A DNA stretch of 63,837 bases, filler included, from Reclinomonas americana ATCC 50394 (Eukaryota), in assembly GCA_048213135.1 (NCBI GenBank). It is 8 parts of 2 records of this genome, joined end to end, with 100 filler letters (N's around TTAATTAATTAA, not from the genome) between each part and the next. Parts side by side here need not be neighbours in the genome. Positions count along the whole stretch, not along the records: positions 51,062 to 54,939 come from PS015089.1; positions 55,040 to 59,895 come from PS015089.1; 6 more parts are not named here. The stretch is one strand, 5' to 3'. Positions 51,062 through 58,779 of the stretch are shown piece after piece; within the stretch, counting starts at the first letter, position 1; the number at the start of each line of letters is the position of its first letter. The position numbers were made by a program, and so were the translations under genes. Below the pieces are notes generated by a model that saw nothing but the letters and a program-made list of their open reading frames with translations, was not told the origin of the DNA and made no database searches.

Positions 51062-51971
51062 AGAAGAGGTGCGACTATTGGAGGGCCACACTGGCCAGGT
51101 AAACTCTGTTACTGTCTCTCCGAGTGGTGAGTTCATTGTGAGTGGAAGTGCGGATATGACAGTACGGGTGTGGTTGACGGAGACGGGAGAACAATTTCGA
51201 CGGTTCGAAGGCCACACTGACTGGGTGATGTCTGTCGCTATCACACCCGACGGTCAGCTGATTGTCAGTGGAAGTGAAGACAAGACGTTGCGAATATGGT
51301 CACTGACGAGTGGAGAGGAAGTACGTCGGTTGCAGGGACACACTGCAGGGCTGTCTTTTGTTGCCGTCACTCCCGATGGTCAGCACGTTGTGAGCAGCGG
51401 CCATGACAAGAGCATTCGGGTGTGGTCGCTGGCAACTGGTGACGAAATGCGACGGTTGGACGGACATGCTGAAGCTGTGAGCTCGGTTGCCATCACCTCC
51501 GATGGTCAGTTCGTTGTGAGCGGAAGCCGGGACAAGACTGTTCGTCTGTGGTCACTAACGAGCGGAGAAGAAGTAACACAGTTGGGAGATCACTCCGATT
51601 GGGTGTTGTCTGTTGCCATCACACTTGATGGCCTACAAATAGTCACTGGGAATAGTGATATGTCGCTTTACCAGCTATCGTTGACAAGCGTAGGGGTAGC
51701 GCGACGGCTGGCTGGGCATACCAACGCTGTGAACTCTGTTGCATTCGTTCCTGACGGTCGGCACGTAGTGAGCGGGAGTGACGACCACACGATACGAGTG
51801 TGGTCACTGGCAACGGAAGACGACGAGCGAATTGGCGTATCTGACAACGCCTCCTGCGCCGCCGATGCTACTGCCGAAGCATCCAGCAAGTTGAGGCTAT
51901 GGCGAGGTGACGTGCTTGAGCGCATCTACGGATCGTTCCTGCCTGATTTTGAAGGCGTCTTGTATGAATGA
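51062..51971 (+). CDS. STAND/NLR-like gene copy A, 3' end (6 visible WD40 repeats)
   Basis: Six 42-aa GH...W repeats. The C-terminal LERIYGSFLPDFEGVLYE* is identical to copy B. Confidence 0.85.
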
Positions 51972-52634
51972 ATGCGGGGGAATCAGGAGTTCTCGGCCAG
52001 CAGGAGTAACACAGTCCGTTTCCTGCGACACCTTTTCGTGTAACGCAAGACAGACGTAAATTGAAGCAAGCCCGTTGCCGATGGAAGTCGACACAGGCAT
52101 GTGCTGCAAGCATGTGTTCTTCTTGACTACACAGCGACAGTCCAGCGTTTCCGCCGAGACGTGCCGAGCGAATGAACGCTATCAATGAAGAGACTGTCTA
52201 CAGAAAGTGAGAATAAACTCGCCTTTGCTGTGGCCACCCGCTTACCACACCAAGTGAATGTCGACGTCAGTGAGAGTCAGCCCAGGTGCAGAGCACAGGA
52301 GCGCGCTGGTGCATGCGAAAACAGCGGCGTGCGTCCTGCATGACACGACCAACCCTCGCACGCCACGAGAGTGAGTGCCGTGTCGACAAGTTGACTGTGA
52401 GTGAGTGAGAGAGAGAGAGAGACTTGTGAGCACCAGGCCCCGCCAGCAGGGAACCGCAGAGAATGTCGGTGAGCTGTATCGCCTGTGTGGCGGACACTCT
52501 CTTCTCGTTCACTTCTCTCTTACCTCCATGCGTTCAGTTCTCGGTCCACGTGAGTGCCGCACACGACCCATCTCTCTCAGTGGTCGTGGACTCCCTCTCG
52601 CCCGCCACGTCCACCCTCGCCGACTTGCTCCGCG
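51916..52634. repeat. Segmental duplication unit, second copy at ~57417-58310
   Basis: The coding tail, intergenic DNA, first intron and Ubl exon align almost base for base. Confidence 0.93.
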
Positions 52635-57473: not shown

Positions 57474-58139
57474 ATGCGGGGGAATCAGGAGTGAGTGGTG
57501 TGTTCTCGGCCAGCAGGAGTAACACTGTCCGTTTCCTGCGACACCTTTTCGTGTAGCGCAAGACAGACGTAAATTGAAGCAAGCCCGTTGCCGATGGAAG
57601 TCGACACAGGCATGTGCTGCAAGCATGTGTTCTTCTTGACTACACAGCGACAGTCCAGCGTTTCCGCCGAGACGTGCCGAGCGAAGGAACACTGTCAGCG
57701 AAGAAACTGTCTGGAGAAAGTGAGAATAAACTCGCCTTCGCTGTGGCCACCCGCTTACCACACCAAGTGAATGTCGACGTCAGTGAGAGTCAGCCCAGGT
57801 GCAGAGCACAGGAGCGCGCTGGTGCATGCGAAAACAGCGGCGTGCGTCCTGCATGACACGACCAACCCTCGCACGCCACGAGAGTGAGTGCCGTGTCGAC
57901 AAGGTGACTGCGAGTGAGTNNNNNNNNNNNNNNNNNNNNNNNNNNNNNNNNNNNNNNNNNNNNNNNNNNNNNNNNNNNNNNNNNNNNNNNNNNNNNNNNN
58001 NNNNNNNNNNNNNNNNNNNNNNNNNNNNNNNNNNNNNNNNNNNNNNNNNNNNNNNNNNNNNNNNNNNNNNNNNNNNNNNNNNNGAGAGAGAGAGAGAGAC
58101 TTGTGAGCACCAGGCCCCGCCAGCAGGGAACCGCAGAGA

Positions 58140-58779
58140 ATGTCGGTGAGCTGTATCGCCTGTGTGGCGGACACTCTCTTCTCGTTCACTTCTCTCTTAC
58201 CTCCATGCTTCAGTTCTCGGTCCACGTGAGTGCCGCACACGACCCATCTCTCTCAGTGGTCGTGGACTCCCTCTCGCCCGCTACGTCCACCCTCACCGAC
58301 TTGCTCCGCGAGGCCACTCGCTTGCTGCGCGAGAAGAGCGGTGATGCGACACTGGAGATTGTCGGTGTGATCAAGCCGGCCGAGTACNNNNNNNNNNNNN
58401 NNNNNNNNNNNNNNNNNNNNNNNNNNNNNNNNNNNNNNNNNNNNNNNNNNNNNNNNNNNNNNNNNNNNNNNNNNNNNNNNNNNNNNNNNNNNNNNNNNNN
58501 NNNNNNNNNNNNNNNNNNNNNNNNNNNNNNNNNNNNNNNNNNNNNNNNNNNNNNNNNNNNNNNNNNNNNNNNNNNNNNNNNNNNNNNNNNNNNNNNNNNN
58601 NNNNNNNNNNNNNNNNNNNNNNNNNNNNNNNNNNNNNNNNNNNNNNNNNNNNNNNNNNNNNNNNNNNNNNNNNNNNNNNNNNNNNNNNNNNNNNNNGACC
58701 TGGAGGACACGAGCTCGATGAAGCTGCGCAGTCTGGGCATCAAGGCCACCACTCCGCTGGTCGTCACACTGGCGCCGAG
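58140..58779 (+). CDS. Copy C, 5' exons encoding a ubiquitin-like domain (58140-58145, 58214-58387, 58697-58779)
   Basis: Near-identical to the copy B start. FSVHV...STLTDLL...DLEDTSSMKLRSLGIKATTPLVV resembles a beta-grasp Ubl (cf. ubiquitin [21 protein letters not shown]). Confidence 0.62.

What the first reader, a model, noticed from the sequence alone, without database searches (positions are those of the whole stretch)
51062..58387. Tandem array of at least 3 receptors with near-identical flanks but strongly diverged WD40 sensors
Seen: the last ~55 coding nt (LERIYGSFLPDFEGVLYE*), ~500 nt of intergenic DNA, the first intron and the Ubl exon are almost identical between 51916-52634 and 57417-58310. 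The six terminal WD40 repeats and post-repeat linker of copy A do not match those of copy B one-to-one, and similarity switches on abruptly at CTTGAGCG. Inference: sensor cassettes are swapped or diversify faster than adjacent non-coding DNA, as expected for an arms-race receptor repertoire.
Basis: partly seen in the sequence, partly recalled or inferred. Interest (0 to 1): 0.7.

Follow-up and report, generated by a model that had tools for sequence, protein, structure and literature searches.

The report
Tandem NLR-like genes, recently copied junction
Three head-to-tail copies of an immune-receptor-like gene in a protist draft genome share an almost identical gene-to-gene junction although their sensor repeats are anciently different, which is most simply a recent unequal crossover or gene conversion, the ordinary way such gene clusters grow.

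Summary
From 51915/57417 (18 codons before each stop) through the spacer, exon 1, intron 1 and the start of exon 2, the two copies differ by 16 substitutions in 719 aligned bases (2.2%) plus two indels. Immediately upstream nothing aligns.

The genes are NLR-like STAND genes: a small N-terminal module, a probable DZIP3-like HEPN domain, NACHT, pentapeptide repeats and 14 WD40 repeats. The 100-nt join block at 54940-55039 hides about zero bases. The order is therefore gene 1 (3' end), gene 2, gene 3 (5' end).

The WD40 units are old paralogs: mean nucleotide identity 0.62, synonymous difference about 0.64 (saturated), a star-shaped tree, no one-to-one pairs, and 0 of 190 pairs at 85% amino-acid identity or more. 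So the flank is young; the sensors are not fast-evolving.

The best reading is a recent unequal crossover (tandem duplication) or gene conversion whose left edge lies in the C-terminal tail. Cassette swapping cannot be separated from this with two copies. No reads or genome were available to exclude an assembly or haplotype artefact. The scan had already noted this family elsewhere in the same genome (e1-7448605). It is a new member of a known kind.

The parts
51062..51971 (+). Gene 1, 3' end only. It holds the end of one WD40 unit, six complete 126-nt WD40 units A1-A6 (51084-51839), a 75-nt linker (51840-51914), the shared 18-codon tail (51915-51968) and the stop (51969-51971). The 5' part of the gene is not in the window.
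   Evidence: Open frame. Pfam WD40 E 1.8e-67. Period and unit starts. tblastn finds no further NACHT in the window.
51915..52634 (+). Copy A of the young shared segment. It comprises the last 18 codons and stop of gene 1, a 491-nt spacer (51972-52462, with an AATAAA hexamer at 52212-52217), gene 2 exon 1 (ATG TCG, 52463-52468), intron 1 (52469-52537, GT..AG, 69 nt), and exon 2 from 52538 up to the N-run.
   Evidence: BLASTN and alignment. Sequence read directly. The 1-nt indel between the copies lies inside the proposed intron and would shift the frame if that stretch were coding. No Rfam match in 51800-52634 at E up to 1.
53423..54939 (+). Gene 2, middle part, one open frame. It holds an N-terminal helical region with an R-N-x3-H motif (53624-53641, probable DZIP3-like HEPN), then NACHT (about 53990-54481, Walker A G-N-S-G-A-G-K-T at 54008-54031) and its C-terminal helical extension.
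   Evidence: Pfam NACHT E 1.5e-10. HEPN_Swt1 E 0.16 on the motif. Atlas best cluster is a DZIP3-like HEPN cluster, score 0.93, 191 of 256 features. Alignment to P0001.
54940..55039 (.). 100-nt join block (N44 + palindromic six-frame-stop dodecamer + N44). It hides about zero bases of gene 2.
   Evidence: All 6 homolog alignments that reach the last residue before the block place the first residue after it 0 or -1 residues further on. The split codon CC|A reads Pro, as in the A-C-P of a homolog.
55040..57473 (+). Gene 2, 3' part. It holds the end of the NACHT module, pentapeptide repeats (about 55359-55532), 14 WD40 units B1-B14 (55554-57317), a 99-nt linker (57318-57416), the shared tail (57417-57470) and the stop (57471-57473).
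   Evidence: Open frame of 810 codons. Pfam Pentapeptide E 2.5e-10. WD40 with 14 stretches. 39% identity over 768 columns to P0001.
57417..58310 (+). Copy B of the young shared segment. It comprises the tail and stop of gene 2, a spacer (57474-58139, including a 164-N run at 57920-58083 that corresponds to no bases in copy A), gene 3 exon 1 (58140-58145), intron 1 (58146-58213, 68 nt), and exon 2 from 58214.
58214..58779 (+). Gene 3, 5' end only. It holds exon 2 (58214-58387, then 309 N) and an in-frame coding piece at 58697-58779 followed by a GTGAGT donor. The rest of the gene is lost in gaps (58857-59731) and the next join block (59896-59995).
   Evidence: Open frame across the N-run. Sequence read directly. 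No Pfam family for either piece.

Best explanation
The locus is a head-to-tail array of at least three paralogous NLR-like STAND genes. Each has a small N-terminal module, a probable DZIP3-like HEPN RNase domain, a NACHT NTPase, pentapeptide repeats and two seven-bladed WD40 propellers.

The near-identical block runs from the last 18 codons of the upstream gene through the spacer and into the first exons of the downstream gene. It is young DNA, about 2% diverged, lying next to old DNA. It was produced by a recent non-allelic recombination event in the array. One possibility is an unequal crossover between the C-terminal tails of neighbouring genes, which makes a tandem duplicate; in that case gene 3 should be a near copy of gene 2 along its whole length. 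The other is a gene-conversion tract covering the junction.

The WD40 arrays of gene 1 and gene 2 are simply old paralogs that the event did not touch. The abrupt switch at CTTGAGCG is the left edge of the copied segment. It lies in frame, so one of the two genes now carries the other's C-terminal tail.

The protein mechanism is inferred by analogy and not shown. The WD40 propellers would bind a trigger, NACHT would oligomerise on NTP, and the N-terminal HEPN domain would be brought together and cut RNA, stopping or killing the cell.
For: Shown:
- The flank differs by 2.2% substitutions (16 of 719) plus two indels. Intron and spacer positions are as conserved as coding ones, so recency rather than constraint explains the identity.
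- WD40 units have mean nucleotide identity 0.62 (maximum 0.75), pS 0.64 and pN 0.30. Positional pairs are no closer than any other pair. The longest exact match between the A and B arrays is 20 nt. In the repeat tree, 0 of 17 inner branches are well supported.
- The linkers are 75 and 99 nt long and do not align.
- The pieces on either side of the join block fit as one gene. In 6 of the 6 alignments that reach residue 505, the offset is 0 or -1.
- Each flank copy is joined without a gap to a different WD40 array: contig 51062-52634 and contig 55040-57919.
- A further sequence close to gene 2 exists and is transcribed. P0013, an EST-derived ORF, is identical to the gene 2 NACHT at 138 of 146 residues. 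This fits a near-copy such as gene 3, but equally an allele or another strain.
- The assembly falls apart exactly where gene 3 would repeat gene 2 (gaps at 58388-58696 and 58857-59731, then the end of the piece).
- The domain order is supported.

Inferred: the type of recombination event, and the whole protein mechanism.
Against: - Only 171 nt of gene 2 (170 nt of gene 3) can be compared, so the prediction that the two are near-identical throughout is untested.
- There is no homology left of the switch. A homologous crossover therefore needs the tails to have been alike beforehand. Otherwise the left edge is an illegitimate junction that happens to be in frame (a one-in-three chance).
- No reads, no whole genome and no other family member could be examined. 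An assembly or haplotype origin of the second flank copy is therefore not excluded.
- Eight of the 16 substitutions sit in 29 nt (52173-52201). A uniform age does not predict this.
- The HEPN assignment rests on a language-model look-alike, a weak Pfam hit to another HEPN family (E 0.16) and the motif. PF18738 itself did not hit, and the single-sequence fold was unusable (pLDDT 38).
Confidence: 0.6

Rival explanations
1. Sensor-cassette exchange. The tail, spacer and first exons form a conserved module kept alike among family members. Whole WD40 arrays are exchanged or replaced between genes at its edge, which would diversify the receptor repertoire.
For: - The same mosaic is expected: an abrupt in-frame edge at 51915/57417, with unrelated linkers and WD40 arrays upstream.
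- The variable positions of the 42-residue unit are positions 5, 7 and 23 (entropy 2.8-3.2 bits). From general knowledge of WD40 folds, not tested here, these lie in loops on the top face of a propeller.
- The family occurs as further diverged copies elsewhere in this genome, according to the earlier scan note e1-7448605, which I did not check.
Against: - Only two junctions are seen, and a single recent copying event explains them.
- There is no sign of repeat exchange. 0 of 190 unit pairs reach 85% amino-acid identity, no exact match between the arrays exceeds 20 nt, and the tree is a star.
- No other protein with this tail was found among proteins of 69-221 residues. That search needs shared 5-residue words, and the genome's own proteins are not in the database.
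Confidence: 0.12
2. Assembly or haplotype artefact. The genome has only one such junction. The second version is the other allele, or a collapsed or chimeric contig placed in tandem by the scaffolder.
For: - The region is a low-quality draft with seven join blocks and many N-runs.
- A 164-N gap in copy B corresponds to zero bases in copy A.
- Genes 1 and 3 break off at join blocks.
- 2% divergence is within the range of allelic non-coding variation in some protists (general knowledge).
- No sequencing run could be listed to test depth.
Against: - Each flank version is joined without a gap to a different upstream WD40 array and linker.
- The piece that starts gene 2 and the piece that ends it abut to the codon. 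An allelic model must call this a coincidence.
- A chimeric contig would have to switch exactly at an in-frame point.
Confidence: 0.18
3. Functional constraint. The spacer holds a regulatory element, a non-coding RNA or an antisense gene that purifying selection keeps nearly identical while the coding repeats drift.
For: The block includes what should be the 3' UTR, promoter and 5' UTR. Antisense open frames of 109 and 291 codons overlap it.
Against: - Identity of 98-100% holds evenly over about 700 nt, including intron and synonymous positions. No known constraint does this while neighbouring synonymous sites saturate.
- No Rfam family matches at E up to 1.
- Antisense frames of that length are common all over this G+C-rich window.
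Confidence: 0.03

Closest known systems
NACHT-pentapeptide-WD40 NOD-like receptors of Mortierellomycota fungi and their Mycoavidus endobacteria (Ciach et al., Evol Lett 2024, PMC11291939; passages read)
   Same: The order is the same: NACHT, pentapeptide repeats, about 14 WD40 units. These are the best database relatives. P0001 (Mycoavidus) is 32% identical over the NACHT part and 39% over the rest. The next best named hits, after the P0013 EST ORF, are from Modicella, Mortierella and Linnemannia. In that group too the function is untested.
   Different: Identity is only about 30-35% in NACHT. The N-terminal parts differ: here a probable HEPN behind a small spliced N-terminal module, while relatives I checked carry TIR or ARM-like heads. 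The host is a protist (the nearest sequence is an EST ORF labelled Reclinomonas americana), not a fungus or bacterium.
Animal NACHT proteins with an N-terminal DZIP3/hRUL138-like HEPN domain (Anantharaman et al. 2013, PMC3710099; pearl oyster genome, PMC9646362; passages read)
   Same: A HEPN of this type sits in front of NACHT. The motif is Rx4H with Asn after the Arg, as those papers describe. Some oyster members end in WD40 or TPR repeats. The genes occur in tandem, copy-number-variable arrays.
   Different: The Pfam model PF18738 does not hit this protein. The link is a language-model look-alike (0.93) plus the motif. Pentapeptide repeats are not reported for the animal proteins in the passages I read.
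Podospora HET-E/HET-D/NWD genes and other fungal NLRs with highly internally conserved repeats (Paoletti et al. 2007, PMC1805685, abstract; Dyrka et al. 2014, PMC4986451, passages)
   Same: They share the NACHT plus 42-residue WD40 architecture.
   Different: The defining feature there is repeat units about 85% identical that are shuffled within and between genes. Here the mean unit identity is 52% and the maximum 74%, so 0 of 190 pairs qualify. What is homogenised here is the gene junction, not the repeats.
Bacterial NACHT (bNACHT) anti-phage proteins, Kibby et al.; known to me only from earlier scan notes and recall, paper not read here
   Same: One-gene layout of effector, NACHT, pentapeptide and WD40.
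   Different: No PADLOC model of that group matched. The only PADLOC hits were mad8 (E 6e-5) and a HEAT-ARM model over the WD40 part. This gene is eukaryotic and has spliced 5' exons.

Membership tests
STAND / NLR-like NACHT NTPases | NACHT domain with a Walker A P-loop | tested here: met
   Pfam PF05729 E 1.5e-10, 41.6 bits against a cut-off of 26.7, residues 190-353 of the piece. G-N-S-G-A-G-K-T read in the translation.
STAND / NLR-like NACHT NTPases | Tripartite layout: N-terminal effector, central NTPase, C-terminal repeat sensor | tested here: met
   The order is N-terminal region, NACHT, pentapeptide, 14 WD40 in one frame across 53423-57473. The nature of the effector is only probable.
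NACHT-pentapeptide-WD40 subgroup (Mortierellomycota / Mycoavidus type) | Pentapeptide repeats between NACHT and WD40, with closest relatives in that subgroup | tested here: met
   PF00805 E 2.5e-10. At least 11 of the 12 hits list PF00805 with WD40 families (one list is truncated). The named top hits are Mycoavidus, Linnemannia, Mortierella and Modicella.
HEPN superfamily, DZIP3/hRUL138-like family (PF18738) | Rx4-6H motif, commonly with Asn after the Arg | tested here: met
   R-N-D-L-A-H at 53624-53641. The motif definition is taken from PMC9646362 and PMC3710099.
HEPN superfamily, DZIP3/hRUL138-like family (PF18738) | Significant match to the family profile | tested here: not met
   hmmscan at E up to 10 lists only PF18731 HEPN_Swt1 at E 0.16, 12.7 bits against a cut-off of 27.5. 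PF18738 does not appear. The Atlas look-alike (0.93, 191 of 256 features, 12 of 30 hits in that set) is a lead, not a test.
HEPN superfamily, DZIP3/hRUL138-like family (PF18738) | All-alpha four-helix HEPN fold | tested here: inconclusive
   The single-sequence AlphaFold model is helical but has mean pLDDT 38.4. There is no PDB sequence relative; the best hit has E 0.4 and is an unrelated phosphatase. No homologs were available for an alignment.
Fungal NLRs with highly internally conserved repeats (HET-E/NWD type) | Repeat units at least about 85% identical within a gene and between genes, i.e. concerted evolution | tested here: not met
   0 of 190 unit pairs reach 85% amino-acid identity; the mean is 0.52 and the maximum 0.74. 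Mean nucleotide identity is 0.62. The tree is a star.
   No Pfam family at E up to 10 for either coding piece. The Atlas best score is 0.75, an unnamed bacterial cluster. The domain is split by a 309-N run, so it could not be folded whole.

The most novel reading that the evidence does not exclude
The 18-codon tail, the spacer and the first exons form a maintained 'docking' module shared by many members of this family. Complete WD40 sensor arrays would be exchanged at its sharp in-frame edge. A free-living unicellular protist, apparently a jakobid, would then diversify an NLR-like HEPN-NACHT-WD40 repertoire by cassette exchange rather than by repeat shuffling or point mutation.
Probability: 0.1. 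Interest if true: 0.65.

Novelty: new member of a known kind. Interest (0 to 1): 0.3.

Why it matters
NLR-like genes with NACHT and WD40 parts are well documented in animals, fungi and bacteria, and their clusters are known to grow by unequal crossover and conversion. This locus adds a clear, datable example: a junction about 2% diverged next to saturated repeats.

The host is a protist lineage for which my two literature searches found no NLR description. One search gave 2 papers holding both 'Reclinomonas' and 'NLR', both, by title and the start of the abstract (neither was opened), about mitochondria and human disease. One search gave none on protists.

The head-domain combination (probable DZIP3-like HEPN in front of NACHT, pentapeptide and WD40) links the animal HEPN-NACHT genes with the fungal and bacterial NACHT-pentapeptide-WD40 genes. 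If gene 3 proves to be a near copy of gene 2, the locus also shows where this draft assembly collapses. It does not by itself show an arms race.

Tried and rejected
- **Whole genome.** None is held for this window, so copy number and other family members could not be examined.
- **Sequencing runs.** None was listed for 55040-57919, and no RNA holder was listed. Read depth, long reads and expression could not be examined, and read laying was not used.
- **Scan index by sequence.** No look-alike stretch was found for the HEPN-NACHT piece or for the flank DNA. Nothing was noted near this place.
- **Word-based protein searches.** 'Near' lengths for the HEPN-NACHT piece gave nothing at E up to 0.001. 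The tail region (residues 74-126 of 51591-51968) against proteins of 69-221 residues gave no candidate. Neither result shows absence. The genome's own proteins are evidently not in that database, because gene 2 itself never came back.
- **N-terminal domain.** The single-sequence fold was unusable. There was no PDB relative. None of the 150 listed representative hits has its best stretch starting before residue 99. P0060, which BLAST extended to residue 26, carries a TIR domain and does not align over the motif.
- **'Ubl' label.** No support.
- **Non-coding RNA in the flank.** None found.
- **PADLOC.** Only weak or uninformative hits.
- **An intron boundary at the switch point.** Rejected: the bases before CTTGAGCG are TG and AC, not AG, and both frames run through.
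- **Fast sensor divergence by selection.** Rejected because synonymous sites are saturated.
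Full report
**What the window is.** The window is a eukaryotic draft with many N-runs. Seven of them are 100-nt blocks made of 44 N, the palindromic dodecamer TTAATTAATTAA (which puts a stop in all six frames) and 44 N. These blocks read as joins of unknown size, so adjacency across them needs its own evidence. The finding covers two pieces, A (51062-54939) and B (55040-59895). No whole genome is held for the window. No sequencing run could be listed.

**The observation.**
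- BLASTN of the two pieces against the window gives 51915-52406 vs 57417-57919 at 95.0% over 503 columns, and 52407-52634 vs 58084-58310 at 98.7% over 228 columns. All other A-B matches are WD40 against WD40 at 71-76%.
- A global alignment shows identity of 0.32-0.66 in the eight 50-column windows starting 51725-51888. It is 0.76 in the window spanning the switch and 0.78-1.00 from the window at 51923 onwards. The lower values reflect an 11-nt indel and one cluster of substitutions. The switch is at CTTGAGCG.
- Counted piece by piece, there are 16 substitutions in 719 aligned columns (2.2%), an 11-nt indel (57491-57501) and a 1-nt indel. Eight substitutions fall in 52173-52201.
- The 164-N run in copy B (57920-58083) lies where copy A is continuous, at a GA microsatellite.

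**Gene anatomy.**
- On the + strand, piece A starts inside a WD40 array that ends with a stop at 51969-51971 (gene 1).
- After 491 nt comes ATG TCG followed by GTGAGC. An AG at 52536-52537 opens an exon that runs into an N-run.
- In copy B the same structure is at 58140-58213. The 1-nt indel between the copies lies inside this 69/68-nt interval. It would break the frame if the interval were coding, which supports the intron.
- After the N-run, piece A carries one open frame of 505 codons with NACHT (Pfam E 1.5e-10).
- Piece B starts with an 810-codon frame holding pentapeptide repeats (E 2.5e-10) and 14 WD40 units. It ends with the same 18-residue tail.
- tblastn with these parts finds no other copy in the window.

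- Six alignments reach the last residue of piece A. In all six the first residue of piece B falls 0 residues further on (P0021, P0022, P0045, P0145) or -1 (P0051, P0052).
- In the other 34 rows printed, the alignments stop earlier. The extrapolated offsets scatter from -22 to +35, with one outlier of 557 in a multi-domain protein.
- The two bases left over before the block (CC) and the one after it (A) make a Pro codon. The homolog P0014 has A-C-P at that place.

So the block hides about nothing. Gene 2 runs from 52463 to 57473, and the order is gene 1 (3' end), gene 2, gene 3 (5' end). The blocks at 50962-51061 and 59896-59995 have no such support. The rest of genes 1 and 3 is not in the window.

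**The WD40 units.**
- The period is exactly 126 nt, with six units in A and 14 in B.
- Mean nucleotide identity over all pairs is 0.62 (maximum 0.75). It is 0.59 for A-A, 0.63 for B-B and 0.61 for A-B.
- The positional pairs A1-A6 against B9-B14 give 0.55-0.70.
- The proportion of synonymous differences averages 0.64 (positional pairs 0.40-0.85) and the non-synonymous proportion averages 0.30.
- Amino-acid identity averages 0.52, and 0 of 190 pairs reach 0.85.
- A maximum-likelihood tree of the 20 units has 0 of 17 inner branches well supported and no A-B sister pair.
- The longest exact match between the two arrays is 20 nt.
- The most variable positions of the unit are 5, 7 and 23.

These are anciently diverged blades under average purifying selection. 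There is no sign of recent exchange and none of the high internal conservation that marks the fungal HET-E/NWD type (PMC4986451, passages; PMC1805685, abstract).

**What the mosaic means.** Synonymous sites in the repeats are about thirty times more different than the flank, and the linkers differ in length. Point-mutational 'faster diversification' of recently shared sensors is therefore rejected. One of the two parts has a different, much younger ancestry.

The simplest event is non-allelic recombination in the array. An unequal crossover between the tails of neighbouring genes creates exactly this arrangement:
- gene 1, spacer, gene 2 body with a hybrid or borrowed tail;
- a copy of the same spacer;
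- a fresh copy of gene 2.

This predicts that gene 3 is a near copy of gene 2 throughout. A conversion tract over the junction gives the same picture locally.

Three indirect points fit a near copy:
- the assembly disintegrates just where gene 3 would repeat gene 2;
- an EST-derived ORF, P0013, matches the gene 2 NACHT at 138 of 146 residues, so a slightly different version of this part exists and is transcribed;
- the gene 2 and gene 3 exons that can be compared are 98.7% identical.

None of these is decisive. The EST could be an allele or come from another strain, and only 171 nt of gene 2 can be compared with gene 3.

An artefact is not excluded either. Against an artefact, each flank version is joined without a gap to a different WD40 array, and pieces A and B abut to the codon.

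**What the gene is.**
- The exhaustive search with the 505-residue piece gave 1663 proteins at E up to 0.001. None of the 150 listed had its best stretch starting before residue 99, so only the NACHT part has sequence relatives.
- Named relatives are NACHT-pentapeptide-WD40 proteins of Mortierellaceae fungi and of Mycoavidus. This group is described as NOD-like receptors shared between these fungi and their endobacteria (PMC11291939, passages).
- Relatives carry other heads, for example TIR or ARM-like.
- The first about 140 residues of the piece contain R-N-D-L-A-H. The evidence for a HEPN is a weak Pfam hit to HEPN_Swt1 over this motif (E 0.16) and a language-model look-alike search whose best cluster is 'DZIP3-like HEPN' (0.93, 191 of 256 features).
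- The family profile itself did not hit. The fold prediction failed (pLDDT 38). No solved relative exists. HEPN is therefore probable, not shown.
- HEPN of this family fused to NACHT is known from animals and Capsaspora (PMC3710099). It is greatly expanded in tandem arrays in a pearl oyster (PMC9646362).
- The 'Ubl' label for the first exons has no tool support.

The working model is that WD40 senses, NACHT oligomerises and HEPN cuts RNA. This is an analogy with other NLR-like STAND proteins and is untested.

**Context from the scan.** I could not see that sequence. My sequence look-ups did not retrieve it. The only close database sequence I found is labelled as a jakobid EST.

**Verdict.** This is a real and cleanly bounded mosaic in a real tandem array of NLR-like genes. 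It is best read as a recent duplication or conversion junction. That is an ordinary process in such clusters, seen here in an unusual host and with an uncommon head domain. It is a new member of a known kind and of modest interest. Evidence for an arms race or for sensor swapping is lacking.

Noticed in passing
window 19427-32097: A second, unrelated tandem family: four units of about 3.3-3.5 kb (roughly 19427-21355, 22076-24518, 25261-28581, 28805-32097), 82-91% identical to each other. The three ORFs tried from them have no Pfam family.
   Followed up: partly
window 12069-12168, 32221-32320, 39177-39276, 42503-42602, 50962-51061, 54940-55039, 59896-59995: Seven 100-nt join blocks of N44 + TTAATTAATTAA + N44. 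The one at 54940-55039 sits between bases that abut in frame, so at least some of these blocks hide no sequence.
   Followed up: yes
window 57920-58083: A sized gap of 164 N in copy B corresponds to zero bases in copy A, at a GA microsatellite. Gap sizes in this draft are unreliable.
   Followed up: yes
window 58798-58824 and 59732-59758: A 27-nt G-rich stretch after the gene 3 donor site recurs as a perfect inverted copy at the start of the small contig 59732-59895. That contig may be flipped, or the intron may hold an inverted repeat.
   Followed up: partly
window 53423-57473: The HEPN-NACHT-pentapeptide-WD40 body is a single open frame of at least 1316 codons, the longest in the window. Earlier scan notes describe this genome as intron-dense. 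Only the small 5' exons are spliced on. This might point to a late acquisition of the body with an added 5' module.
   Followed up: no
P0013 (database protein), matches window 54026-54463: An EST-derived ORF labelled Reclinomonas americana is identical to gene 2 at 138 of 146 residues. Its first 22 residues read like the +1 frame of the same DNA, which suggests a frameshift in the EST.
   Followed up: partly
window 52173-52201 vs 57686-57714: Eight of the 16 substitutions between the flank copies cluster within 29 nt of the presumed 3' UTR, just upstream of an AATAAA hexamer. This could be a small separate conversion patch or a mutable spot.
   Followed up: no
window 49650-49780: A long (CAA)n run passing into (CAG)n, in non-coding-looking DNA upstream of the join block that precedes gene 1.
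   Followed up: no
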